A DNA stretch of 63,602 nucleotides, filler included, from Chrysochromulina tobinii (taxonomy: Eukaryota), in assembly GCA_001275005.1 (NCBI GenBank). It is 6 parts of 6 records of this genome, joined end to end, with 100 filler letters (N's around TTAATTAATTAA, not from the genome) between each part and the next. Parts side by side here need not be neighbours in the genome. Positions count along the whole stretch, not along the records: positions 60,363 to 63,602 come from JWZX01000708.1; 5 more parts are not named here. One strand, 5' to 3'. Under the pieces are notes generated by a model. That model had not been told where the DNA came from. It worked only from the letters and a program-made list of their open reading frames with translations, and did no database searches. Positions 9,744-63,602 of the stretch are shown here, in pieces. The position numbers and the translations under genes are program-made. Every line of letters begins with the position of its first letter. The stretch's first letter is position 1.

Positions 9744-9843
9744 NNNNNNNNNNNNNNNNNNNNNNNNNNNNNNNNNNNNNNNNNNNNTTAATTAATTAAN
9801 NNNNNNNNNNNNNNNNNNNNNNNNNNNNNNNNNNNNNNNNNNN
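9744..9843. other. Artificial contig spacer (N run + TTAATTAATTAA)
   Basis: Six-frame stop linker flanked by Ns. Confidence 0.99.
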
Positions 9844-10751: not shown

Positions 10752-13700
10752 TCAGCCGAAAGCGATGCGCTTGCGCGCCATCGCGTTGTCAGCCTCGAGG
10801 ATGCGCTTCCCCATGCGGCCCTGCCACTCGGTGCTGCGTCGGCTGCCCGCGCCGTGCTGATGCAGCTGCTTGAGGCACACCTGGTACTGCTCATCGAGCT
10901 CCTCCCGGCTGCCGGCGAGCGCGGCCGAGAAGGTCGAGAAGCTAAAGGCGAGCGCCATCCAACGCTCGGCTTCCTCGAGCTGTTCCTCCTGAAAGCATGC
11001 AACGCCTGATGAAAGTGGTCAAATGAAAGAGGTCGATGAAAGAGGTCGATGAAAAAGTAAAAGAGGCGCTCAGAATGGCACTCATATGGAACGCAGAGGG
11101 GCACCCATAAAGGCACTCAGAGTGGCCATAAGGCACTCAGAGTGGCCATAAGGCACTCAATTAGCCTTGTACCCTTGTTCCAGCTCTCGCTTAGTAGCCA
11201 TCCGAGGTCATCTGGGCTGATCGGGCAGTTGGCGTCTGAGAAGCCCTCAAGAAGTTCCTTTGCAACCTCGAGGTACGGCCATGCGAGCGCGCGCCGCTCG
11301 GCGAGCTTGATGAGCCGCTTGAGCACGTACACGATTTGCGCGTAGTGCTTCGGCTCGGCCATCTGCATGCAATCGTTCGAACACATTTGGCACCCAGTGA
11401 TCATCAGTGGCCATCACGAGCAATCAATAGCCATCAGTCGAGCACTCGCCTGTAACCGCGCGAGCGCCTTCTCGAGTGCGAGCACGCCGAGCTCTCGCTG
11501 GCGCGCGCGCAGGCAGTCGTCGGCGAGACCCTCGAGCTGTGCCGCCGAGACGCTCTTGAGCGCAGCGACGCGCTCGAGCACCGCGCGGGCGCTCGGGTCG
11601 CGACGGAGCAAGGCAACCTCGAAATTAAGGAGCTGGAGTGTTGGAACGAGGTCGGCTGCCAGCTCGGGCGCCGCCGGTGGTGCCGTGGGGGGCGGCGGCG
11701 CTGCACCACCCGCCGCCGGGCCAACGCAGCCATCGCCGGCGCTCGCGGCGGACGAGGCGTAGACAGTGGCGGTGGCAGTGGCCGTGGCAGTGGCCGTGGC
11801 GGCATGAGCCTCGCTCGCAGCGAGACCGACGGCAGCAGCCTGGCTCCACCGGTGGTGGAGGCGGAAGGCAGCGGCGATGGCAGAGGAAGCGTGCGAGAGG
11901 TTCTCATGCTCCTCCGGCTCCGCGGCGCACAGAGCGCTCAGCCGCAGCCGGCAGCGACAGACGACCGCTTGGCAACGGATCATTGCATGCAGACGGGCCT
12001 CGGTGGATGGCAGCGCATTGGTCAGCTCGCACGACGCCTCAGCGAGCTCGGCGCACAGTGCGAATGACGCTTTCGACCGGCGCGCCAGCCCCGCGTCCTC
12101 GCCACCGCTGCCGCTGCCGACGACGACGACCGTGCCATCAGCGGTGCCGTCGCCGTGACCGCGACCGCCATCACCGCCTTGCGCGTTGTTGTGTGTCGCG
12201 TCGCGAAGGGAGGCCTGGGCGACAGCGAGGTTCCATGCGGTGTCAGAGAGCCACTCGATGTACGAAGGATCATCACACACGCCAGCGCCGTCGTGGCCAG
12301 CTCGCGTCGCGATGCACTGCAGGTCGGCGAGCACTGCGCGATGGAGCGTGAGCAATCGCTCCCAATCGGTTGCACTGCCCGCGCCTAAGCCCGCGCCAGC
12401 CGCACCGGCAACCAGCTCGGTGCCATCACCATCCTGCCCGAGGCGTGCGGCCGCGCGCGCCTCAGCCGCCTCGCTCGCGCCAGCCTTGAGCCGCATCTCG
12501 ACGAGCGCACGCACCGCGGCGGCGAGCCTCTCGGGGCGAAGGCAGGAGGCGCCCCCCACTGATGCAGGGCCCACGGAAGAGGCAGGCTCGGCGCTGGCGG
12601 GGAGGACGCGGCTGCCGGCACCGCCCGCCTTCCGACCTGCCGACGACGCGCCGCCCCCGCATCGTGCACTGCCCGTGCCTGCGCCCGTCGCGGCTGCGGC
12701 GGGCAGCGCGACAATCTGTTGGACGATGTGCTCAAGGATCCGCACGCACGGCGCGTGGAACTTGGTCCCTTGGGCGGCGAGCTCTTCGCACACAGAGGCG
12801 AGGAGCAGCGTGTCTTTGGGCTTGGTCTGCAGCAGTGTCTCCACTTGCGCGCGCGCGCCCGTGGTGTCGCCTTGCTTGAGACGCGCCTTGACGAGGACGA
12901 TGAGTGCGAGGCTACGCAGGTCTCCGCCGCTCTCGCTGCCAACGACGCTAAGGCCGTCCCCGACGACGGCACGCGCGTGCACATCGTCAGCCGACTCGGG
13001 TGTGCACTCGCCGTAGAGCCGCATTGCGACGGACGCGCGGTCGATGGCCTGATCGGTGCGCTCCTGCAGCAGGTAGCAGTGCGCGATCGTCGCCTGTACG
13101 CGGTGCTGCCGCCGCCGGTCGCGCGTGTGCTCCAGAAAACGGTAGGCGTCCTCGAAGCTTGAGGTGGTGCGGAAGAGGTCGCCCATCTGGTAGTGGCTCA
13201 CACCCGCGGCCCAGAGCTTCGAGGCGAGCGCGAAGAGGGTTGCCTCTTCGAGCAGTCGGCGGCCCGAGCAGTGGCCGTCGAGAATCGTCTCGAGGTGCTC
13301 GGCGGCTGCCGCCGAGTCAGGTGCTCGTTCGGTAAGCAGCCGAAACTTGATCTCCTGCAGCTCGGCGTACTCCAACCCCTCGTCGCTGCCCGCGGCCCAC
13401 TCGCCGCGCTGCGCGAGCCGCTCCGTGAGTACGCCGATCGCGCTGAGCGCTGCCGAAATCGCATCGTTAGCGACGAAGAGGTCGATGAGTGTCGTGGCGG
13501 TCGCCCCGGGCATGTGCTCACTCGAGCGCAGCCAGTCGAGAGCGTGCGCCTGTGCCTCGGCCGGCTGATTGCAGCGGAAGAGGAGAAGAGTATTCAGCAG
13601 CGAAAAGGCGTCAGTCTTGCTCGCCGAGTGTTGGCGCAGCGCGTGCGCAGCGAGGTCGATCTCGTTCTCCTGGATGCACAGCAGCGCACGCAGCCGGAGC

Positions 13701-34749: not shown

Positions 34750-36589
34750 ATGGTTGACGGTGGCCGCTGCAGCAGCCTACGTTCTGGAACCTGTAACGTA
34801 TACATGATGCGCCGCGCCGGAGTGACGGACCTCACGCTGCCAAAAGACCTCATCTGGACGGTGCCCGTCACTCCTCTCGAGGAGCAGTTGCCGCCGCCAA
34901 CAAGGGCACCTCCGCAACCCATTGCAATCCTCAAGTGCGCATACCGCGCACGCGCCTCGTATCGAATCCGTCAGCGGCCCGAGTGCCTGACACGCGTGGT
35001 CTGGATGTGCGCAGTCGCGTGATCGTTAGCAACCACGCGGCAAAGGCGGCGTTGCGCGAACGCCGAGGCGAACATGGGGCCGCTCATCGTGTAGTGTCGC
35101 ACGTGTCCTCGGCTCCGCCGGAGCTCCGCGTGATGATGTCGATCCCGACCATCTTCAATCCAAACTTGAACGGCATGGAGCCCATTCCCGACTTCCTTCC
35201 CCGCCCAAACGAGACGGTCGGCTTCAAGTGCGCTCCTCGCCTGCCTCGCCCTGATTGCCCGATGCACCGCGCAAACTACCTCGCAACGATGCCCGCGCTC
35301 CCTCTCCCCCCCCGCCCTGCCTCGACGCCACGTGGCTTCGTCCCGTCTGCTTGCCGCCACCCTTATGAACTCGCAGCTACAAGGTCGACGGGGTCCTCGG
35401 CTCGGGCTCCTTCGCCACCGTCTTCCGAGCCGTGCACGAAGGCGCCCAGAACCGGCCCGTAGCACTCAAGTGCCTAAAGAACGCAAAAGAGACGGTGGAT
35501 GCCGGGCTGGGCGAGGCCCGGGTTCAATCTATGATCCGGCTGCATGACCCACTCGGCCGCCGGCACATTGTGCGGCTGCTCGACTGCTTCTACTACCGCG
35601 AGCACCTCTTTCTCGTGTACGAGTGCCTCAACGCGTCCATCTTGGCGCACTACATGCACCTCGAGACACTTGGCCCGCGCGCGCGCGCTGAGTACTGGCA
35701 CGCAGGCTCGATCGGGGCTCTCACCATCCAGATGCTTGATGCGCTCGCCTTCCTCGCCTGCCTCGGCATCACGCACTGTGACGTCAAGACGACCAACATC
35801 TGCATCGTCAACGCGGAGCGTCGCATCTTCAAGCTCATCGACTTCGGCTCGGCCGTCCTCACGCACGACGCCCACATGTCCTACCTGCAGGTGAGTGCCA
35901 CTACTAGTGCCCCCCGATTCCCCCCGACAGCCTTGGCCTGGTGGGCCTCAAGTGTACGGCGCCCACCATGGCGCCCATCCACCCCTACCCTGGCGCCCAC
36001 CATGGCGCCCATCCACCCCCTACCCTGCGCCCACCATGGCGCCCATCCACACCCTTCCCTGCAGAGCCGCTGGTACCGCGCGCCCGAGGTGATCCTCGGC
36101 CTCAACTGGACGCCCAAGATCGACGTGTGGTCCCTCGGCTGCGTGGCCATCGAAGCCGCGCTCGGCTTCTTGCCCTTCCAGTTCGCGTCGACTGAGCTCG
36201 TCCTCGCGGCCCAAATGGCTACCCGCGGGCCCTTCCCGCCATGGATGATGGAAGGGCCACTCGGATCCATCTACTTCTCCGGCTCCGGCTGCGTGTACGA
36301 GGTCGACCCCAGCGCCGCCGCCCCGGGCGCCTACCTGCTGCGCGCCGAGCCCAACACGACGCTGCCCGAGCTGCTCGCCCAACAGCTCGATCCCGCCATA
36401 TTCGGCGACGTGCTCTCCTTCAGTCACTTCGCCGAGACGCTTCTGACCCTCGACCCCGACGTACGCCCTACTGCGGCGGAGGCGCTGCAGCACCCGTGGA
36501 TGGCCTCGTATGGTCTTCCCCCTATCGATCCCCCGATCGTGCCTGCAACGCCCACGTTGTCGGACGAGGTCCCTCTGACGGCGAGATAG
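34750..36589 (+). CDS. CMGC/DYRK-like protein kinase; introns ~34935-35014, ~35228-35376, 35891-36064
   Basis: Spliced GSGSFATV, VALK, HCDVKTTN, DFG, SYLQ|SRWYRAPE, IDVWSLGC. Confidence 0.88.
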
Positions 36590-37740: not shown

Positions 37741-39366
37741 TCAACCCAGACGAGTCACTAGGCGAGGCTGTGGCAGTATCGAGGTTGTGATGGTGGCGTG
37801 GTTGAGGGCGTAGGTCCGGAGGGCGGCCTTGACGGAGGGCGTAGCTCCAGTAGAGGCTGAGTGTGGCCTTGATGAAGCGCCGTAATGGGCGCCACCACCA
37901 GTCATCTGGGCTCCGGCAGGCATCAGCTTGGGCACAGACTGGTGCTGCGGCTCTGACTTTAGCCGTGCGCGGGGCTGACCCGTGTGAATGGACCCCAGGC
38001 TGTGGTTGATGGTCGTGCCGGCCCTGGGGTTCGTCACCCGGCTCGGGTGCGGGGGTTGGCGGGGGGGGCTCTGGGTAAAGCTCTGGGACTGGGTCTCACT
38101 CGGGGACCACCGAATCAGGTGCGACGGTGCACTCGAAGGCAGCGTGCCACCTGCCGTCACGAGGGCATGGGCGCGCGACACATAGGACAATGGCGAGGGG
38201 AGGAGCGCTCGGGACGGCGCTGGAGCGCGGTTCGTCAACGACAACGTCCATGGCGGCCCGTCGGTCAAGGGGCGGGCCCCACTCACTGCCCCACTCCCCC
38301 TGCTGCAGGGCCGCAAGCTGGAGGGCATGAAGTCGGGCATGACGATATGCATGGCGGCAGGTGAGGCGGCAGGTGAGGCGGCAGGTGAGGGATGAGACAT
38401 AGAGAGCGGACTCGCGTCGTCGTGGGCGTCCTCGAGGAGGCAGGTGCCGTTACGGTTGAGGGATGAGTTGCTGGATGGGTTAGATGCCAAATTCGGTGCA
38501 CTGGTGGGCCTCGCTGATCCCTTGCTTGCCTTCTTCGGAACGATCTTCGCGGCTGGATCGACCTGAGCCACAGCCGTCGGCGATCCTGACGGGTCGAGGC
38601 TGATTGCATGCTGATTGCGTCCCTCATTGGCGGACGTCGATCCTGACGGGTCGAGGGGTCGAGGGACGCTCGTTGCGACGCTCGTGTGAACGCTCGTTGC
38701 GACGCTCGTGTGAACGCTCGTTGCGACGCTCGAGAAGGAGCCGATCGAGGAGGTCACGCACAGGCCGGGCTGCATGGTGCGGTCGTTGAGGGCCGTGCCG
38801 GAACTGCTCCAAGTCCGTGCTGCTTGCATGCTGATTGCATGCTGATTGCGTCCCTCATTGCCGGAACTGCTCCAAGTCCGTGCTGCTCTAAGTGCTTCTC
38901 TGGCAACATGGCTACTCGGGCCGGCGGAGGACGTGAAGGAGGGTGCCGATTGAGGTGCCGTTGCGCTCACTGTTTGATTAACTGTTTGACGAAGCTGCCA
39001 TCGATGCTGCTGCCATATCGACGATGCTCGTGCGATCGGAGCACGTGCTGGGTGAGCTGCAGGGCCCTGATCGCCGGTCATGGCCAAAAGGCCAGGGGCG
39101 CTTGGCATGGCGCTTGGCACGAGAGGGGAGTCCAGTCTCTTCGAGAGTCCCATCTCATAGAGTAGCCATGCCGCTTGCGTGGAGGTGGAAGGCACGGCGG
39201 TGTCCGCGCCGGTGGCGATGGTTAGGCGCGCCGCGTGCCTCGCATCGATCTCCCGGTCCACATGGAAGAAGAGCTGCAGCGCCTCATCGGTGCCCTCTTG
39301 AACGTGCGTGCTGCGCCCGGCGCGGAAGGTCGCGAACGGCGTCGGTGTTTCCTGTTGGAAGCACAT
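37741..39366 (-). CDS. Hypothetical Ser/Pro-rich protein carrying two in-frame NEGRNQHAIS insertions
   Basis: Long open frame (track 651 aa); probable ATG at 39366; low complexity. Confidence 0.55.
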   Translation of the reverse strand: MCFQQETPTPFATFRAGRSTHVQEGTDEALQLFFHVDREIDARHAARLTIATGADTAVPSTSTQAAWLLYEMGLSKRLDSPLVPSAMPSAPGLLAMTGDQGPAAHPARAPIARASSIWQQHRWQLRQTVNQTVSATAPQSAPSFTSSAGPSSHVAREALRAARTWSSSGNEGRNQHAISMQAARTWSSSGTALNDRTMQPGLCVTSSIGSFSSVATSVHTSVATSVHTSVATSVPRPLDPSGSTSANEGRNQHAISLDPSGSPTAVAQVDPAAKIVPKKASKGSARPTSAPNLASNPSSNSSLNRNGTCLLEDAHDDASPLSMSHPSPAASPAASPAAMHIVMPDFMPSSLRPCSRGSGAVSGARPLTDGPPWTLSLTNRAPAPSRALLPSPLSYVSRAHALVTAGGTLPSSAPSHLIRWSPSETQSQSFTQSPPRQPPHPSRVTNPRAGTTINHSLGSIHTGQPRARLKSEPQHQSVPKLMPAGAQMTGGGAHYGASSRPHSASTGATPSVKAALRTYALNHATITTSILPQPRLVTRLG

Positions 39367-39901: not shown

Positions 39902-42360
39902 TCACTCGACGGGTGCGAAACGGCTTGAGAGCGGCAGGGCGAGCTCGGCCGCTGTGAAGACCCTTGCTCCGAGCTCTGCCTGTCGGCTCGTCTCCGCCTG
40001 CATGTATGGGCGGGAAGCAACCGGAAGTCGATCGGCGGTCAATCGGAGGCAATCAATCGGAGGTCAATCAGTCGGAGGTCAATCAGTCGGAGGTCAATCA
40101 ATCGGAGGTCAATCAATCGGAGGTCAATCAATCGGAGGTCAATCAATCGGAGGTCAATCAATCGGAGATGAATCGGAGGCGCGGCGCACACCTGCATGCG
40201 GCGAGTCTGGTGGAGCTCCGCGTGCTTCATCACCACCTGGCGGAGGGCCTCGCGCCGCGACCGCGTCGCGGACTGGCGCACCGCCACGACGCCCTTCTTC
40301 GCGCGCCGGCGCAGCACGGCCGCATGCCACTCGGTTGCCGCCTCCTGCTTCATCAAGTCCATCATCTTCTTCTCGGCCAGCTCCTCTTCGGCCGCGAGCC
40401 GGTTGGCATGCACCTGTGTACAATTCGCGCATGCAATTAATGAGGCAATCACGCTCCTCTTCGGCCGCGAGCCGGTTGGCATGCACCTGTACCCACAATT
40501 GGCGCATGCAATTAAGGAGGCAATCCGTGGCAATCAGTGGCATGCACCATGTCCGCGAGCGCCGCCTCTTTGGCCAAGATGCTCAGCTGCGACGTCTCCT
40601 TCTTGGCGAGCAAGATCTCGGACCGAATCTCGCGACCTTTGAGCTCTGCCGCCTTGAGCGCCTCACGCAGCGCGCGACGCTTCGCGGCGGAGGCCACGCG
40701 CTCGATACGGCGCATCGCGCTCATGTGTACCTACAACTCCCAATCGAGCGCCATTCAGCATGCAATCAGCATGCAATCAGCATGCAATCAGCATGCAATC
40801 AGCATGCAATCAGCATGCAATCAGCTGGCTGCCGTGGCATGGTCCCTGCAAATCCCAATCAGCATGCAATCAGCATGCAATCAGCTGGCAGCCGGGGCTT
40901 GATTACCTTCGCTTCCCTCGTCTCCCGACGCGCATGTGCTCCCAGTTGACGAGCGGGCGCCGAGACGAGCAGGGACGTCGAGACCGTCGTCAGCCGCTTG
41001 AGGAGTGTAGCTGAGGGCGTCGCGCGCGCCTTCTTAATGGCCTCCGGCTTGATGGTGATCACCTCCGGGTGGAAGCGCTGCGCCATGCACAACACCTTGC
41101 TCGGTGCTTTGGCACGTAGCGCCATGCCGCGCGCCACCTCTGCCGAAACCATCTTCTCGTAGTGCTCGGCTTTGGCCATCTTTGTCACGTCGTCCGTCCC
41201 CATTGCATGCGCGCGCACGGCCTCCGCCACGTCCTTGGCATGCATGTTGAACATCTGAGCCGCGTCGCTGATGATGCTCATGAACGCTTCACGCTTCGCT
41301 ACCGCGCGCTCCATTGCCGCCGTGTCGGCCATCCGCTTGGCTTCCAGTTCGAAATCCTGAGGAGGCCAGAATTGCGGCCATCAGACGTCATCAGGCAGGC
41401 GGCCATCGGCCCATCATCAGGGGCCATCAGACGTCATCAGGGGCCATCAGACGTCATCAGGCAGGCGGCCATCGGCCCATCATCAGGGGCCATCAGACGT
41501 CATCGGGCGGCTCATCAGAGGGGCTCATCAGAGGGGCTCCTTAGAGGGGCTCATCAGAGGGGCTCATCAGAGGGGCTCCTCAGAGGGGCTCATCAGAGGG
41601 GCTCCTCAGAGGGGCTCCTGGGTGCTCAATGAGCGCAGGCTGGCTAAGGGGTGCAACAAACCTGTGCCGAGCGTGCCTTCGCCACCGCCTTCTGGCGCTG
41701 CGCCTCGTGCTCGAGGAAGGCCTGTTTGGCCTCATCGAGGCGGCGCGACTCGGCGGCTGCGAAGCGCTGCTGCAGCTGCTCCATGGCGAGCGCGGCCTCC
41801 TCTTGCTCCTTCGCCTTGCGCGCCGCCACCACCTCGAGAGCGTGCTTCACGGTCGACGAGCCTTTCTCGGCGACCTCGGCGATCAGCTGCTCGCGCTTCG
41901 CGACGGCCTGCTCGCCGCGCTCGGCGGCGGCAACGCCCTTCTTGAGCGCCTGCATGTGTGCCTGGCTGCGCGCACGTGCCACCTCCTCAGCCAGCGCCAT
42001 CCGCTTCTCCTTGTCCGCCTCGCGCTTCTCGTCCTGGCTCGCCTTGCGCGCCTCCGCCTTGCTGGCCGACGCGGCCATCTTCTCGACGATGCGAGCGGCC
42101 TCAGCCGCCTCGGTAGCCTGCTTGCGCTCGGCCGCAGCGGTCGCGCGCTGAAGATCACGAGTCGCCTTCTGCTTCACTTCTTCCAGGTACGCCCCGCGCA
42201 GGGCGCCGCGCCGCTCCTTGTCCGCCGCAATGTCGTCGAGCGACTTGGGCTCGGCCTGGATGTTGATGCGGTCGCGCAAGGCCCCACGGATGGTGCGAAC
42301 CTCGTGATTGACCGGGATCTCGATACTCACTGGGAGGCGAACCTCGTGCACAGTCGACAT
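39902..42360 (-). CDS. Coiled-coil protein, 5 exons (introns 41357-41661, 40731-40906, 40414-40547, 39998-40191)
   Basis: All four GT-AG introns are phase 0 and join helical A/E/K/R-rich exons in frame; function unknown. Confidence 0.7.
40030..40180. repeat. Intronic 15-bp tandem repeat (aatcaatcggaggtc)n
   Basis: About 9 copies within intron 39998-40191. Confidence 0.95.
40755..40885. repeat. Intronic 11-bp tandem repeat (catgcaatcag)n = CTGATTGCATG on the gene strand
   Basis: Multiple perfect copies within intron 40731-40906. Confidence 0.95.
41375..41625. repeat. Intronic tandem repeats (ggccatcagacgtcatcag) and (ggggctcatcaga)
   Basis: Within intron 41357-41661. Confidence 0.9.
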
Positions 42361-46062: not shown

Positions 46063-46162
46063 NNNNNNNNNNNNNNNNNNNNNNNNNNNNNNNNNNNNNN
46101 NNNNNNTTAATTAATTAANNNNNNNNNNNNNNNNNNNNNNNNNNNNNNNNNNNNNNNNNNNN
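46063..46162. other. Artificial contig spacer
   Basis: N run + TTAATTAATTAA. Confidence 0.99.
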
Positions 46163-54723: not shown

Positions 54724-54823
54724 NNNNNNNNNNNNNNNNNNNNNNNNNNNNNNNNNNNNNNNNNNNNTTAATTAATTAANNNNNNNNNNNNNNNNNNNNN
54801 NNNNNNNNNNNNNNNNNNNNNNN
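54724..54823. other. Artificial contig spacer
   Basis: N run + TTAATTAATTAA. Confidence 0.99.
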
Positions 54824-54824
54824 T

Positions 54825-57380
54825 GTGCACCGGGGCCAAACGCGAGCAAGCGTGCTGAGCACTCGCCTTCGCAATTACAAGTACCCGCGCAACACAGACC
54901 TGCCCTCCCAGATAGCGAAAACGGACGCCAAGGGCTTCGGAATCTTCAACGACACCCTTGAGGTCATCGAGGTCATCGAGGAGCCCAGCCTGCCCGTCGT
55001 GACGGCGCGGATGACGCCCATCAAGAAGCAACCACGTGTCCTAGCCCACTCGCGCGCCGATGAGGCTGAGAGACGCCACATCGCTGAGCTAGGGGTCTGG
55101 CGAGGCTTTGGTGCGCCAGAGCCGTGGCGCCAGCGGCTCAATGTTTCCGCGGGGGGGCAGGGCGACGAGTGGGAGCGCATACGGTCCGAGGTGCTGAGAG
55201 AGGTGCGTCGGAAAACCAAGGGCAAGGGGGGGTGCGCATGTGGGGGGTACTCGAGGCGATGGTTCTGCCCTACATGCTGCCACAAGCAGCCGTACGCATG
55301 CGACCACGACGGCTGCGGCAAGACCTTTGCACATGTCGGCCCATTCGAAGTGCACAAGCGCTCGCACACGGGCGAGAAGCCGTTCGCCTGCGACTATGTG
55401 GGCTGCACGTATGCATGCACCACGACGAGCGACCTCACGGTGCACAAGCGCTCGCACACGGGCGAGAAGCCGTTCGCCTGCGACTACGTGGGCTGCAGCG
55501 CGCGCTGCACCACGTCGAGCGCCCTCACGGCGCACAAGCGCTCGCACACGGGCGAGAAGCCGTTCGCCTGCGACTACGTGGGCTGCACGTATGCATGCAC
55601 CACGATGGGCCCCCTCACGGTGCACAAGCGCTCGCACACGGGCGAGAAGCCGTTCGCCTGCGACTACGTGGGCTGCACGTATGCATGCACCACGTCGAGC
55701 GCCCTCACGGTGCACAAGCGCTCGCACACGGGCGAGAAGCCGTTCGCCTGCGACTACGTGGGCTGCAGCGCGCGCTGCACCACGTCGAGCGTCCTCACGG
55801 CGCACAAGCGCTCGCACATGGGCGAGAAGCCGTTCGCCTGCGACTACGTGGGCTGTGGTAAAGGCTTCAAGAGCGCGCGAGCCCTCACGGGGCACAAGCG
55901 CGCACACACGGTCGAGCAGCCGTTCGCCGGCGACCACGAGGGCTCCGGCAAGCCCTCCGAGATCGAGCAGGCGGAGGCGCTCCGCTGCTGGCACGTGCTG
56001 CTCACGGCGATGCGCGACGACCGCGTGCGCGAGCAGCAACTAGGCTCGACCTCCTCGGCGGCGCGGTCGAGCGACCTCACCCCGCGAAAGCGCCCGCGCC
56101 CGGGCGACCGGGCGCGCGCCGGCGTTTACGAGGGCTGCGGTATGGCGCTTGCCGGCGTCACGATGTCGGTGCGCCCGCCGGGAGATGCGCTGGCGGGCTT
56201 GGTGCAGCTCCATCTAGGTCCGTGGCGGCAGACTTGTCTGTCCGAGATGGGCTTATGCGACGAGGCGGTGGAGTGGTGGGCGCGGTCGCTCGGCCACGCG
56301 CTCGGCCAACGTCTGGCGCGCCGATCGAACGCCGCCGCGCTGCCGCCCTGGGGCCTGCGATCCGTGCACACGCCGGGCGATGGCAACTGCCTGCTGCACG
56401 CGCTGCTCCAAGCGACCCTCGGCGTGTGCGACATGAGATTGCCCGCTTCCGACGAGCCCGGCGCCTCGACCCTCGCGGAGCTCCATGGTGGCGCGCGCCC
56501 GCGCCGCTCCCTGCGCGCGGCGCTGCACCACTGCATCGTGCACTGCGAGCCGTTGCGCGCGCTGCTCGCGCACCACGGTGCGGTGCTCCACGAAGTCGAG
56601 AGCGGCTCCGTCCGAGACGGATACTCGTGCGAGCCCGCCCACGTGCTCGCGCTCGCTCACATCTTCCGCCGGCCGATTGTGTGCTACGCGGGCGCCGAGG
56701 TGGACGAGATTCGCACCGGTCGTGACGATCACCTTCTTCCGGCCCTGGGGGTCACCACGATGAGCCAGCTCGCGGCTCGCGGCTCGAGGATGAGCGGCAT
56801 CTACTTGCCGTGCCTGCTGCGACCGGACGAGTGCGCCTCGCGCGACCCCATTCTGATCGTGTACAGCCCGGGCCATTTCTCGGCCCTCTGTTCCACGGAG
56901 TGCGCGGGCGAGGAACGAGTGTGGCGCGCGCTCGGTCTCGACGTGCCGCCCCCCGATGATCCCGTCGCCCCGGGCGCGCCCTGCTCGGCCACGGGCTCGA
57001 TCCCCGTGCCATTGGTCGACGATACCCTCACGCCGTTGCCGGTGCTCTTCCCGCCCGTCCCGGCGCCCGCCGACCACGGCTCGATGGAGGGGCTACTGCG
57101 CTCGTACCTCGACCTGTACGTCACGACGACGTCAGTCTTCGGCGCTGCACCGGGCACGAGCCCCCAGCCGATCACCGTCGCGCGCCAGCGCATCCCAGCG
57201 CCAGCGGACGGGCCAGCGGACGGGTCGCTCGGTGCGCCGCCCGCGGATGCGTACTCCTCGGCGGCGGCGTTCCTTGGGTTTTGGGATTGGAGCTCGGGTG
57301 GGGAACAGAATGCTGAGCAGAGCACGTCCGTGCAGCGCCCCAAGCGAGCCCGTGCCCCTCTTCAGCGCGCGCCTCCTTAG
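54825..57380 (+). CDS. Seven C2H2 zinc fingers fused to an A20/TRABID-type OTU deubiquitinase domain, 5'-partial
   Basis: HTGEKPFAC linkers; TPGDGNCLLHA, HVLALAHIFRRPIV, GIYLP, PILIVYSPGHFSAL. Confidence 0.85.
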   Translation: MHRGQTRASVLSTRLRNYKYPRNTDLPSQIAKTDAKGFGIFNDTLEVIEVIEEPSLPVVTARMTPIKKQPRVLAHSRADEAERRHIAELGVWRGFGAPEPWRQRLNVSAGGQGDEWERIRSEVLREVRRKTKGKGGCACGGYSRRWFCPTCCHKQPYACDHDGCGKTFAHVGPFEVHKRSHTGEKPFACDYVGCTYACTTTSDLTVHKRSHTGEKPFACDYVGCSARCTTSSALTAHKRSHTGEKPFACDYVGCTYACTTMGPLTVHKRSHTGEKPFACDYVGCTYACTTSSALTVHKRSHTGEKPFACDYVGCSARCTTSSVLTAHKRSHMGEKPFACDYVGCGKGFKSARALTGHKRAHTVEQPFAGDHEGSGKPSEIEQAEALRCWHVLLTAMRDDRVREQQLGSTSSAARSSDLTPRKRPRPGDRARAGVYEGCGMALAGVTMSVRPPGDALAGLVQLHLGPWRQTCLSEMGLCDEAVEWWARSLGHALGQRLARRSNAAALPPWGLRSVHTPGDGNCLLHALLQATLGVCDMRLPASDEPGASTLAELHGGARPRRSLRAALHHCIVHCEPLRALLAHHGAVLHEVESGSVRDGYSCEPAHVLALAHIFRRPIVCYAGAEVDEIRTGRDDHLLPALGVTTMSQLAARGSRMSGIYLPCLLRPDECASRDPILIVYSPGHFSALCSTECAGEERVWRALGLDVPPPDDPVAPGAPCSATGSIPVPLVDDTLTPLPVLFPPVPAPADHGSMEGLLRSYLDLYVTTTSVFGAAPGTSPQPITVARQRIPAPADGPADGSLGAPPADAYSSAAAFLGFWDWSSGGEQNAEQSTSVQRPKRARAPLQRAPP
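55288..55935. repeat. 90-bp zinc-finger-coding minisatellite
   Basis: Near-identical cacaagcgctcgcacacgggcgagaagccgttcgcctgcgactacgtgggctgc units. Confidence 0.95.
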
Positions 57381-58813: not shown

Positions 58814-59401
58814 GGCATTTTGGGGTTTGTGGCATTGGGTCATTTGTCATCCACCGCCTATCTTGGAATCGGTCTTGCGGCATTTTGGGGTTTGCGGCAT
58901 TGGGTCATTTGTCATCCACCGCCTATTTTGGAATCGGTCCTGCGGCATGTTGGGGTTTGCGGGATTGGGTCTTTTGTCGTCCACCGCCTATTTTGGAATC
59001 GGTCCTGCGGCATTTTGGAGTTTGTGGGATTGGGTCTTTTGTTGTCCATCGCCTATTTTGGAATCGGTCCTGCGGCATTTTGGGTCCTGCGGGATTGGGT
59101 CTCTTGTCGTCCATCGCCTATTTTGGAATCGGTCCTGCGGCATTTTGGGTACTGCGGGATTGGGTCTTTTGTCGTCCACCGCCTATTTTGGAATCGGTCC
59201 TGCGGCATTTTGGGGTTTGCGGGATTGGGTCTTTTGTCGTCCACCGCCTATTTTGGAATGGGTCCTGCGGCATTTTGGGGTTTGCGGCATTGGGTCTTTT
59301 GTCATCCATCGCCTATTTTGGAATCGGTCCTGCGGCATTTTGGGGTTTGCGGGATTGGGTCATTTGTCATCTTCCGCCTATTTTGGAATCGGTCCTGCGG
59401 C
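58814..59401. repeat. 65-bp tandem minisatellite, ~9 copies
   Basis: Unit ggcattttggggtttgcgggattgggtcttttgtcgtccaccgcctattttggaatcggtcctgc. Confidence 0.95.
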
Positions 59402-60262: not shown

Positions 60263-60362
60263 NNNNNNNNNNNNNNNNNNNNNNNNNNNNNNNNNNNNNN
60301 NNNNNNTTAATTAATTAANNNNNNNNNNNNNNNNNNNNNNNNNNNNNNNNNNNNNNNNNNNN
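60263..60362. other. Artificial contig spacer
   Basis: N run + TTAATTAATTAA. Confidence 0.99.
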
Positions 60363-63300
60363 ATCGGAGACGACGTGATGATGAGCCAATCCAATGTGTG
60401 GTCCTACTTCTATCCCTACGTCCCTGCCATTCCCAAGGAGCACCAGCCCAGCAATCCCGCTGCCAACATTTCGCCGAACCCCCAGCTCGACGTAGAGGCT
60501 GCAAAGGCCGTGGTCAAGGACATGCGAGATCAGGAGCACAGAGCTGCGGTAGCCCAAGCAGAGGCGTTGCGAGCCGAGGCTGCCAGGGCGAAGGCGGCGG
60601 CTGAAGGGAAGGCAGCAGCCGAGGCAAAGGCGGCGGATGACAAGCTATGGATCTTCACCGACAAGTGGTTCAACCTACGGTTTGTCCTGCAGTACCACAA
60701 GCAAGGCGTGTACGCCTTTGCAGCAGCTGGCCTCATCGAGATCGGGGCTCGAGGTTCATCGTTTGGTTTCCGGTCGCTGGTGCTCACGGTCAAGAATCTT
60801 GCATCTTGTCCTCTTAAGGTGCTCGTGCCGAGGGGCACCTGGTTTCACAACAGGACGCCATTCTATCAGCCACTCGTCACCATTCGTGATTATTGGATTG
60901 AGATTGAGCCTGGAGCCCTTGCGACCGTTGAGCTCGACGCGTTCTGCGGAAGCGTAACGTACGGCTGCCCACGTCGCGACGACATGGAGCTGTCTCCGTA
61001 TGTGTTTGTCGGAGAGATGAACCAGTCCAAAGTGTGGGACTACTTCTATCCCTACGTCCCTGCCATTCCCAAGGAGCACCAGCCCAGCAATCCCGCTGCC
61101 AGTACTTCGCCGAACCCCCAGCTCGACGAAAAGGCTGCAAAGGCCGAGGTCGAGGACGTGCGAGATCAGGAGCACAGAGCTGCGGTAGCCCAAGCAGAGG
61201 CGTTTCGAGCCGAGGCTGCCAGGGTGGCGGCTGCGGAGGAGGCGGCGCAGGCTGAGGCAGCCAGGGAAGCTGCGGAGGCGGCGGCGCAGGCTGAGGCTGT
61301 CGCGGTGCGGCAGCAACAGATCGCTGTACGCAAGGTTGATGGGCTTCGAAGATCTAGCTTCCGGTTCCCTCGGAAATCTAGCTTCCGGTTCCCGCGGATG
61401 AGGCCGGCACCGATTCCTGTCGCGGATCACATGGGCGACGATGGCGATGAGGCGCGCAAGCGCATGCAGGTGAAGTCGTTCACCACGTGGGTGAACCTGC
61501 ACTTGTCGAAAGAGAGCATGGAGGTGAAGGACCTGACCAAGGACTTTGAGGACGGCATCAGGCTAATCAAGCTGATCGAGGTCATCTCGGAGGAGACACT
61601 CGGCAATTACAATCCTGCGCCGAAAAACAAGTTCGAGAAGGTGGCCAACCTGAATGCGCCGATCGAGTACATCAACAATTTCCTCAAGTCGTCCGGCATC
61701 AAGAACCAGTACTCCGTCGAGAACATCCTAGAAGAGAACGAGGTACTCATCCTCGGCATGATCTTCTCACTGATCATGCGCTTCGCCGTGCAGCACGTGT
61801 CCGAGGGCGACCGCACGGCTAAAGAGGGCCTACTGCTCTGGGCGCAGAGAAAGGTCGAGAACGGCTCCAAGGGCATCTTCTCGGCGCATCTGTGCACCGT
61901 CCAAAACTTCCACTCGTCATGGCAGGATGGCACGGCCTTCTGTTGCCTGATCCATGCTTTCCGGCCAGACCTGATCCCGGCGGAGAAGGTGTTCAAGAGC
62001 GCCGATCCGGCCAAGATGCAGGAGGTGCTCAACCTCGCCTTCGACGTCGCCGATAGCAAGCTCGGCATCCCCAAGATGCTCGATGCGGCCGACATGGCCT
62101 CGCACCGTCCGGACGAGAAGTCGGTCATGACGTACGTGCGACCCCGATTGCGTCTGGAGTGCGCCTGGAGTGCGCCTGGAGTGCGCCTGGAGTGCGCCTG
62201 GATTGCGTATGTCCTGATGGACTCCGATGATAACCGTGGCTGGTCGCTCCCTGCTCAGGTACATCTCCTTCTTTTGGAAGGAGTTCGCGTCGAACAAGAA
62301 GAAGCAGACGGCCGCCGAGCGGATCACCAAGGTGGTCGTGCGTGAGGTCCACTATAAGGAGCTGCAGGCGCAGTACGTCGAGCGCGCCACGACCCTCGCC
62401 ACATGGCTGCAGCAGACGCGGGAGAAGCTCAGCGCGCCGCCGCAGTCGAGCGACACGGAGCAGCTGCACCGCTCACTCGACCTGTACGCGGACTTCGGGC
62501 GTACTGAGCGGCCGTCCAAGCTCCAGGAGCTGCTCGACGTCGAGGCTCTCTATGAGTCGATTCAGAGCCGGCTGCAGGCGCTCGGAGGCCGCTCCTGGGA
62601 GCCGCCCGAGGGGTGCGCGCTGATGGCCCCTGATTGTCTCTGATGAGACCTGTGATGGCTTCTGATGGCCACGGATTGCCTCCCTCATCAGCTGCGCGCT
62701 GCCCAAGCTCAAGCGGTGGTGGGAGGAGCTCACATCGGCCGAGCAGACGTACGAGATTGCGATCAAGGACGCGCTCACAAACCTGAAGCGCGTGGGTGGC
62801 CTCATCAAGATGTACCACGCGCGTGCAAGTAAGCTCGATAATTGGCTTGGGCAGAAGGCCGCGTGGGTCCAGGCGTCGCATGACCACGTGCTCGCCGCGC
62901 TCGGAAAGGAACCTGCGCCTGTGACCGAGCTCGGCTTAGACAAACTCCAAGCGAACGAGGCTGTCGCCCCCGTCGAAGAGCAGCAATTCTTGCCCATGTC
63001 GCGCTCGCCCATGTCGCCCGTCAAGGCGAACCTCCCGTCGCCTGCGCCGCCACCGACCGCGCCCAAAACGCGCGCGCAGACCGCGCCGCCGCCGCCCACG
63101 CGCTTCAATACCGTCGAGGGCGCCCGGCCCGAGTCGGCGAACGCGGAGCCGCTCACGCCCAGGAGCAAATCGCTGCTCGACAGCCTCTTCGACGCGCTCA
63201 AGGAGAACTTCGGAATCAGATCGCCAGGCGAGGCCGAGCCCGCCGCCGCCGCCACTGCCGCCAACAGCATCGAGGATGTGGAGGCGGCGGCGGCGGCGGC

Positions 63301-63602
63301 ATGGGCGCCGGCACCGGCGCCATCGGCGGCGCCCACGGCGGCGCCAATGGACGAGCGCCCTCAGACGCCGATGGCGCCTGTGGCCCCACAGTCGCCGAGC
63401 GTGCGCTCGGCCGCCGTCCTGCGCACGCGCAACGCGTACGACGTCTTCAGCGCCGCTATGGCGCAGCACAAGATGCGCTTTGCTCGCGAAGCGTCGCTCG
63501 ACTCGATCTCTGCGGCGATGGCGCGCCTCAACCTGCTCAAGGCGTACGAAGAGGAGCAGGCGAGCCGCGACGAGTCCTGATTGCCTCTGATTGCCTCTGA
63601 TG
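60363..63602 (+). CDS. Alpha-actinin-like protein (tandem CH domains + spectrin-like repeat) with repeated N-terminal domain; partial at both ends; introns 62132-62258, 62613-62691 and a probable one from ~63560
   Basis: MQVKSFTTWVNLHL, DFEDGIRLIKLIEVIS, AKEGLLLWAQ, NFHSSWQDGTAFCCLIH, PDEKSVMT|YIS. Confidence 0.88.

What the first reader, a model, noticed from the sequence alone, without database searches (positions are those of the whole stretch)
62132..62691. Intron 5' ends duplicate the start of the next exon (actinin-like gene)
Seen: intron 62613-62691 begins GTGCGCGCTG and the next exon begins CTGCGCGCTG (9-nt repeat); CTGATGGC/CTGATTG units follow and the intron ends CCTCATCAG. Intron 62132-62258 and its downstream exon both begin GTAC, and it carries (ctggagtgcgc)n. 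Known: short direct repeats at intron boundaries are a hallmark of intron gain by introner transposons or break repair. Inference: the donor GT is recruited from duplicated target sequence, while the insert supplies branch point (CTGAT) and acceptor.
Basis: partly seen in the sequence, partly recalled or inferred. Interest (0 to 1): 0.8.

Follow-up and report, generated by a model that had tools for sequence, protein, structure and literature searches.

The report
Introns that copy themselves into genes
In a freshwater haptophyte alga this spliced intron starts with a copy of the next exon's first bases, as do a third to a half of its many related introns (copies of 9-55 bases), which is likely the scar of a copying step that plants the tail of an existing intron at a new place and so makes new introns without a conventional transposon.

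Summary
Both introns are real: RNA contigs join 62131/62259 and 62611/62691. The gene is an alpha-actinin of Chrysochromulina tobinii/parva or a very close relative. Intron 62613-62691 belongs to a high-copy family built of CTGATTGCC-type units and ending GATTGCCTCCCTCATCAG. In 134 metagenome loci, 52 of 105 such acceptors carry a boundary duplication (about 2% in two nulls); the copies are 9-55 nt and start with G in 50 of 52. A 97%-identical lineage lacks one such intron, and relatives read through all three actinin sites, so these are gains. The duplications are too long and variable for a cut-and-paste transposon. Junctions show microhomology, tails resemble introns less than 1 kb away, units re-duplicate, and a mirror class takes its AG from the duplicate. 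Best reading: microhomology-guided copying of an intron tail into a staggered break, with selection keeping spliceable products. DNA versus RNA template is unresolved. The 4-nt GTAC repeat of intron 62132 is weak alone. Closest known: Daphnia break-repair introns and introners.

The parts
61464..62131 (+). Exon 1 of the alpha-actinin gene (two CH domains; start ATG inferred)
   Evidence: Pfam CH E 9e-34; RNA contig X13 covers 61463-62131; homologues
62132..62258 (+). Intron 1, phase 2, GT..AG; first 4 nt equal the first 4 nt of exon 2; 11-nt repeat at 62149-62207; does not end in the family acceptor
   Evidence: RNA joins in X12 and X13
62259..62612 (+). Exon 2
   Evidence: RNA contigs X12, X13
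62613..62622 (+). Upstream copy of the duplicated target; supplies the GT donor; its last 3 nt (CTG) also begin the first repeat unit
   Evidence: RNA join
62623..62691 (+). Insert of intron 2: CTGATGGC/CTGATTG-type units and the family tail (18-mer at 62674-62691) with the AG acceptor
   Evidence: summed DNA contig depth 17,320 in bin 62662-62740 against 100-230 in most exon bins; 143 scan rows hold the 18-mer
62692..62701 (+). Downstream copy of the duplicate = start of exon 3; first base C instead of G at a silent third codon position
   Evidence: RNA contig has no other letters here
62692..63573 (+). Exon 3
   Evidence: RNA contigs
63574..63602 (+). Start of intron 3 (GTC, then CTGATTGCCT units); runs off the window; the next exon also begins GTC
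   Evidence: RNA contigs X12 and X13 match to 63576; X12's loose end reads on as ESRRALGALY.., as in homologue P0001
27822..27966 (+). Family-type intron of the UFD2 gene, phase 2; 6-nt boundary repeat from position 2 (first base G in the intron, A in the exon)
   Evidence: boundaries match the spliced C. tobinii protein KOO35937.1; relatives read through
40414..40547 (-). Family-type intron with a 10-nt boundary repeat and a second stacked unit (73-nt tandem)
   Evidence: frame restored; not RNA-checked
39998..40191 (-). Repeat-bearing intron whose last 7 nt equal the upstream exon end (possible mirror type; a repeat-free intron at 35891 shows the same length, so weak)
   Evidence: not RNA-checked
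38796..38887 (+). Repeat insert between two copies of a 27-29 nt target, without an AG at its end (decayed or never spliceable); a sister insert at about 38581-38655 shares 24 nt of tail
   Evidence: read from the sequence printed

Best explanation
These are young spliceosomal introns, likely made when a broken or slipped gene strand copies the tail of an existing intron and then rejoins a few to 55 bases upstream, so the target is duplicated and its first copy supplies the GT donor. Shown: the splicing of the window's introns, the duplications, their lengths, an empty site in a sister lineage. Inferred steps: (1) a 3' end in an exon pairs by 2-5 nt (CTG, TGAT) with a CTGATTGCC-type unit of another intron, often one less than 1 kb away in the same gene, read from DNA or from unspliced RNA; (2) synthesis runs to the AG and returns through a short G|GT match; (3) units amplify by slippage and the tail-plus-exon-head unit re-duplicates; (4) selection keeps products with a usable GT/GC, an in-register AG and a length of about 65 nt or more. 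No dedicated transposase is needed; the enzyme (a polymerase-theta-type repair polymerase, fork template switching, or a borrowed reverse transcriptase) is not identified.
For: Duplication excess: 52 of 105 against 1.9% of 2077 swaps and 2.2% of 630 offsets; 97 of 307 against 0.26%. Lengths 10-55, median 23. Upstream copy starts with G in 50 of 52 with no G demanded; 103 of 105 exons start with G. Gain: SCOT intron of L065 present in six listed ORFs at 99-100% identity, absent in three at 97% that still run into the next intron, and absent in outgroups; actinin and UFD2 sites read through in relatives. Junction microhomology mean 2.5 against 1.4 nt at 75 of 97 scorable junctions, p 6e-8. Tail similarity to same-strand neighbours under 1 kb: 12 of 191 pairs against 578 of 45,857 elsewhere; best hit is a near neighbour 21.5 times of 238 against 2.8 (maximum 10.5 in 2000 permutations). 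Such pairs share more exon head (3.2 against 1.9 nt, 17 pairs), as a return by homology past the AG predicts. Duplicate and insert lengths trade off (rho -0.55, 43 introns, none under 65 nt). Motifs lie on the intron's strand 425 to 4. Mirror and two-sided types exist (5 and 7 of 44), so the constant part is the repeat array, not a fixed element end.
Against: Most best matches lie in other loci (275 of 306 shares); only 751 kb was sampled. A rare-13-mer test is weaker (10 of 424 against 1.0%; permutation mean 4.5, maximum 14) and shows no fall with distance. Opposite-strand neighbours also exceed expectation in best-hit share (7.6 against 1.6). Similar neighbours could come from later gene conversion. 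The 17 exon-head pairs are not independent and include one internal gene duplication. 16 of 43 stacked units follow an older repeat tail, so some long duplicates arose at existing introns. The pattern scan selects one tail. Splicing was seen in RNA only for the window's three introns. The empty site is known from protein calls, not from DNA.
Confidence: 0.55

Rival explanations
1. Target-primed reverse transcription: a non-LTR reverse transcriptase/endonuclease acting in trans copies the 3' tail of excised intron RNA (or a short repeat-tailed RNA) into a nick, giving variable-length target duplications and 5'-truncated inserts.
For: Variable long duplications, a constant 3' end exactly at the AG, a ragged 5' end with microhomology and a fixed orientation are all typical of this route (established knowledge of L1/RTE-type elements). 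One insert (L006) is only 15 nt beyond the microhomology, about the distance to the putative branch A. RNA from the same gene would also explain the neighbour bias.
Against: An excised lariat ends at the AG and would not give extra sharing of exon heads between similar neighbours (small sample). Mirror-type introns lack the tail. No poly(A) and no longer element body was seen; a crude YxDD screen of long ORFs showed nothing that looked like a reverse transcriptase (not a profile search).
Confidence: 0.25
2. Turnover at old intron positions: a tandem duplication across an existing acceptor is followed by loss of the older upstream part, leaving exon-duplicate-tail-exon at an ancient site, with no net gain.
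For: 43 of 97 strong duplicates follow a repeat tail directly, 33 of them with 80% or more tail identity; 16 of the 43 trace back to an older tail; some upstream acceptors have decayed.
Against: All five sites tested (three actinin, UFD2, SCOT) are read through by relatives, and SCOT also by a 97% sister lineage. In 26 of the 43 stacks the first copy follows exon-like sequence. Two sibling filamin repeats lack the intron of L012.
Confidence: 0.1
3. A classical non-autonomous DNA-transposon introner (MITE-like) with terminal inverted repeats and a fixed-length target duplication.
For: High copy number; introners with 4-bp duplications are reported in marine Chrysochromulina MAGs (Gozashti 2022); CTGATGA and TCATCAG are reverse complements and can form a 7-bp hairpin at the tail.
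Against: Duplications spread from 9 to 55 nt. Inserts are mosaics of 28-161 nt with no shared 5' end. Four introns fold no better than shuffles (z -0.02 to -1.2). Orientation is 425 to 4.
Confidence: 0.07
4. Chance matches between a GC-rich donor consensus (GTGCGC) and exon starts, or assembly errors at repeats.
For: 23 of 306 exon heads match the first 5 bases after G of intron 2; GTAC is common at both ends.
Against: Nulls of 0.3-2% against 32-50% observed. Duplicate copies carry substitutions (about 4-6%), which mis-assembly would not give. DNA contigs of two runs cover both boundaries of intron 2 and RNA removes exactly one copy.
Confidence: 0.03

Closest known systems
Daphnia pulex neointrons from staggered double-strand-break repair (Li et al. 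2014, PMC4202315; passages read)
   Same: New, polymorphic introns with a direct repeat shared with the adjacent exon; repeated rounds at the same site; break repair proposed.
   Different: Daphnia repeats are 4-12 bp (33 cases) and the source of most inserts is unknown; here duplicates reach 55 nt and the insert is a recurring branch-point/acceptor module that resembles other introns, often near ones.
Introners, including Chrysochromulina MAG families (Gozashti et al. 2022, PMC9860276 / bioRxiv 10.1101/2022.06.06.494994; passages, parts 2-3 of 5 and supplement rows read)
   Same: Many related introns per genome; one splice site taken from a target duplication (Symbiodinium example: 5' site from the duplication, 3' site carried).
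   Different: Their examples have 4-8 bp duplications; the Chrysochromulina example carries its 5' site and co-opts the 3' site. Their pipeline needs similarity starting within 10 intronic bases of both ends and removes repeat-rich families, so this family would likely be missed. Their family sequences were not seen.
Intron gain by tandem genomic duplication and by intron transposition/transfer (listed in Yenerall et al. 2011, PMC3296678; passages read)
   Same: A duplicated gene segment supplies splice sites (two-sided and mirror types here); intron sequence is copied to a new position.
   Different: Here the two are combined: a short duplication plus a copied intron tail, at the scale of a family rather than single cases.
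R-loop reverse-splicing model for Micromonas introners (Simmons et al. 2015, PMC4540971; passages read)
   Same: Enzyme-free spread of introns tied to transcription, with gains near each other.
   Different: That model inserts a whole intron cleanly; here only the tail moves and the target is duplicated.

Membership tests
Spliceosomal (U2-type) intron | Removed from RNA at GT..AG, restoring the frame | tested here: met
   RNA contig joins for introns 62132 and 62613; start of 63574; alignment
Spliceosomal (U2-type) intron | Branch point at CTGAT | not testable with these tools
   Position 17 nt from the end in 150 of 306 tails; no lariat data
Introner (Gozashti 2022 definition) | Many introns of one genome similar at both ends up to the boundaries | tested here: not met
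   3' ends shared (173 of 307 end CTCATCAG); 5' ends are site-specific target copies
Introner (Gozashti 2022 definition) | Recent gain: site empty in close relatives | tested here: met
   SCOT site empty at 97% identity; actinin and UFD2 sites read through at 57-85%; indirect, from protein calls
MITE-type (cut-and-paste) introner | Fixed-length target-site duplication | tested here: not met
   9-55 nt, broad spread
MITE-type (cut-and-paste) introner | Terminal inverted repeats closing the element | tested here: not met
   Only a 5-7 bp complement between the unit and the tail; folding z -0.02 to -1.2 in 4 introns
MITE-type (cut-and-paste) introner | Autonomous partner with transposase | not testable with these tools
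   No whole genome held
Non-LTR retro-copy (TPRT) | Variable-length duplication, constant 3' end, truncated 5' end with microhomology | tested here: met
Non-LTR retro-copy (TPRT) | RNA template and a cognate reverse transcriptase | tested here: inconclusive
   Exon-head sharing leans against a lariat template; crude motif screen only
Break-repair neointron (Daphnia type) | Direct repeat shared with the adjacent exon around filler DNA; presence/absence among close lineages | tested here: met
Break-repair neointron (Daphnia type) | Dependence on an end-joining pathway | not testable with these tools
   Needs genetics or induced breaks

The most novel reading that the evidence does not exclude
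Chrysochromulina has an ongoing, genome-wide route of intron birth with no transposon: a ~20-nt branch-point/acceptor module spreads from intron to intron within a gene by microhomology-guided copying, duplicating 10-55 nt of exon that becomes the donor, so introns seed their own neighbours and the source of each new intron can be traced.
Probability: 0.45. Interest if true: 0.85.

Novelty: new variant of a known kind. Interest (0 to 1): 0.72.

Why it matters
Where new spliceosomal introns come from is a long-standing open question: break-repair gains usually have no known source sequence, and introners are usually read as transposons. Here donor sequence, target duplication, empty sites and re-duplicated stacks are all visible in a cultured alga with sequenced genomes and many lake metagenomes, so the mechanism can be tested directly. 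The family would also slip through the published introner screen, which suggests that repeat-rich introns of other haptophytes deserve the same test.

Tried and rejected
No whole genome is held; two metagenome loci could not be opened as records. The tail pattern is absent from viral contigs; 15 hits in prokaryote genomes are about what chance gives and were not used. All-against-all BLAST and pairwise alignments of overlapping loci showed repeat-number differences but no empty site; a spliced-junction BLAST found none in the part of its output shown. Laying two RNA and two DNA runs on L028:18200-19700 was inconclusive: no RNA contig of the gene, no joined DNA form, no second allele seen. No unusual fold; no Rfam match near threshold at 61900-63602. 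Mismatches are not clearly enriched at donor positions 2-6 (29 of 485 against 66 of 1601, p 0.11). Short duplicates: excess at 5 nt or more (9 of 94 against 0.6) but the overall shift is not significant (p 0.09), and donors there are predicted. Window controls are few: 5' repeats of 6 nt or more in 3 of 10 repeat-bearing introns and 0 of 5 repeat-free ones, mostly called by frame only (intron 3; one of the ten, near 11,000, has an uncertain 3' end). Likeness of CTGATGAG to hammerhead or C/D-box motifs is recalled only and was set aside. A dinoflagellate introner preprint (identifier recalled) was not held; Huff et al. 2016 is recalled, not read. Hovde 2015 (PMC4580454, passages) gives about one intron per gene and says nothing on these repeats; Fekete 2021 (PMC8469720, abstract and outline) describes introns without duplications. 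Ten searches showed no paper describing this family; the Gozashti supplementary PDF, most of its 214 Chrysochromulina table places, its two 'tobin' rows and its sequence files were not seen and may bear on novelty.

Full report
Observation. The letters are as stated. RNA contigs from mixed-culture runs confirm both introns: X13 joins 62131 to 62259 and 62611 to 62691, X12 joins 62131 to 62259. A third intron starts at 63574; RNA runs through GTC and continues in frame, so the next exon also starts GTC. The spliced product has CH domains and aligns without gaps at the splice sites to haptophyte alpha-actinins. The window's UFD2 protein clusters at 90% or more with Chrysochromulina tobinii KOO35937.1 and a C. 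parva model, so the organism is of that group.

A family, not a single case. The end of intron 62613 draws a summed DNA depth of 17,320 against 100-230 for most exon bins, and the consensus of 29 and 27 contigs that continue after it begins GT. A scan for its last 18 bases gave 143 rows from 3 of 64 parts of the metagenome collection, stored as 134 loci, 751 kb, 259 matches. After dropping matches with short flanks (173 left) and those followed by more repeats within 100 nt, 105 terminal acceptors remained. In 52 the exon head is repeated 38-202 nt upstream with score 8 or more, against 1.9% of 2077 swapped and 2.2% of 630 offset controls; copies are 9-55 nt; the upstream copy starts with G in 50 of 52 though this was not required; 103 of 105 exons start with G. 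A broader rule gave 307 acceptors in 108 loci; 97 have a duplicate of score 9 or more against 0.26% (median 23 nt). These loci are not RNA-checked, but removing one copy plus insert restores conserved proteins such as SCOT, an RRM and a J domain. The window's 9-nt case is at the short end; its exon copy has C for G at a silent position, and the UFD2 intron shows the same with A. The 4-nt repeat of intron 62132 is weak alone.

Gain or old positions. ENA/JGI/Logan protein calls ignore splicing: P0158 equals the window's unspliced 730-aa UFD2 frame. That turns protein clusters into a presence/absence test. At the SCOT intron of L065 (20-nt perfect duplicate), six listed proteins at 229-231 of 231 identity run into the intron, while three at 223 of 230 (P0252, P0290 on 20 contigs up to 15 kb, P0291) read straight through and then run into the next intron, which shows they are genomic. 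Three more members end four residues after the site and say nothing; only 15 of 87 members were listed. Outgroups at 57-81% also read through, except P0253, which stops two residues on, on a 944-nt contig. At UFD2 all ten same-species calls examined enter the intron, and relatives at 78-85% on contigs of 5-11 kb do not. A direct look for an empty allele in DNA contigs was inconclusive.

Anatomy. Inserts are mosaics of 10-nt units (CTGATTGCCT 133, CTGATGACCT 87, CTGATGGCCT 72 counts), 28-161 nt long in the 43 exon-preceded cases, with no shared 5' end; duplicate and insert lengths trade off (rho -0.55) and no such intron is under 65 nt. The duplicate's end overlaps the first unit more than chance (2.5 against 1.4 nt, 75 of 97 junctions scored); in the window this is CTG. 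Motifs lie on the intron's strand 425 to 4. Of 97, 43 follow another tail directly, 10 lie within 60 nt of one and 44 do not; of the 43 stacks, 26 start at exon-like sequence, often with a shorter first copy, 16 at an older tail, 1 at a contig end. A test not tied to the acceptor found direct repeats around 44 of 126 isolated arrays (0.2% in swaps): 20 duplicate the exon head, 5 the upstream exon end (AG from the duplicate), 7 both sides, 12 have no in-register GT..AG. The SCOT gene holds both types side by side.

Source of the insert. Tails match same-strand neighbours under 1 kb more often than others (12 of 191 against 578 of 45,857 pairs; 2 of 209 at 1-4 kb; 1 of 121 beyond; 3 of 241 on the opposite strand). 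The best match is a near neighbour 21.5 times of 238 against 2.8 in permutations, one internal gene duplication removed. The 17 best near pairs share 3.2 nt of exon head against 1.9. Against this: most best matches are elsewhere, opposite-strand neighbours are also above expectation in best-hit share, a rare-13-mer test is weaker and flat with distance, and later gene conversion could do the same.

Mechanism. The simplest model for all of this is two microhomology junctions: a 3' end in the exon pairs with a repeat unit of an existing intron, copies to the AG, and returns at G|GT some bases upstream. With the adjacent intron as template one slip is enough, which gives the stacks. Selection then keeps what splices. 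Shown: splicing, duplication, gain at five sites (indirectly). Inferred: branch use, template, enzyme. Target-primed reverse transcription of intron RNA predicts much the same product and stays the main rival; a cut-and-paste element fits poorly.

Comparison. It works like Daphnia break-repair gains (4-12 bp repeats, source mostly unknown; PMC4202315, passages) and like introners that take the donor from a duplication (Gozashti 2022; passages and two of five parts). It fails the introner test of similarity at both ends and the fixed-length test. That study reports marine Chrysochromulina introners with 4-bp duplications and the opposite geometry, and filtered repeat-rich families; its sequences were not seen. 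Ten library searches showed no description of this family.

Verdict. Real, spliced, young introns; a new variant of intron gain with target duplication; interest 0.72.

Noticed in passing
window 9744-9843, 33831-33930, 46063-46162, 54724-54823, 60263-60362: Five 100-nt scaffold gaps, each with the same 12-letter TTAA spacer in the middle: an assembly convention; neighbours across gaps may not be contiguous.
   Followed up: partly
window 60364-61463: An open frame of 366 codons runs in frame into the actinin start; it holds a roughly 200-nt internal duplication and no Pfam match. Long RNA contigs begin at 61461-61463, so it may be a separate or silent piece.
   Followed up: partly
window 61460-61890 and 62824-63185: Two haplotypes at about equal depth differ at many sites (up to 15 in 185 nt) in both DNA runs: a strongly heterozygous or mixed culture.
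   Followed up: no
window 27822-27966: Same-species protein calls read into this intron with different lengths (730, 737, 744, 749, 751 aa), so its repeat part varies between strains.
   Followed up: partly
window 38581-38655 and 38796-38887 (+): Two duplicate-flanked repeat inserts without an AG, sharing 24 nt of tail: possibly raw or decayed events outside a working gene.
   Followed up: partly
window 11363-11449 (-): A GC-AG intron with repeat units and no boundary duplicate, called by frame only.
   Followed up: no
window 58814-59401: 65-nt minisatellite, 9 copies, 93% alike, upstream of a glutamine-rich frame.
   Followed up: no
window 55350-55944 and about 56370-56400: A 90-nt array that reads like C2H2 zinc fingers, followed by a GDGNCLLHA stretch that recalls OTU proteases (label recalled, not tested).
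   Followed up: no
L028 18930-19160 (-): A patchwork intron in a WW-domain-like gene holding copies of both the upstream exon end and the downstream exon head between repeat arrays; its repeat draws summed depth 159,247 against about 80.
   Followed up: partly
L131, L047:3577, L019:10282, L068:7541 and others: Duplicates that begin GA or GG, mostly after an older acceptor; whether such starts ever act as donors is untested.
   Followed up: no
L066:4868, L019:11711, L073:301, L040:13971: New duplicates begin 9-28 nt after an older acceptor, which would create micro-exons.
   Followed up: no
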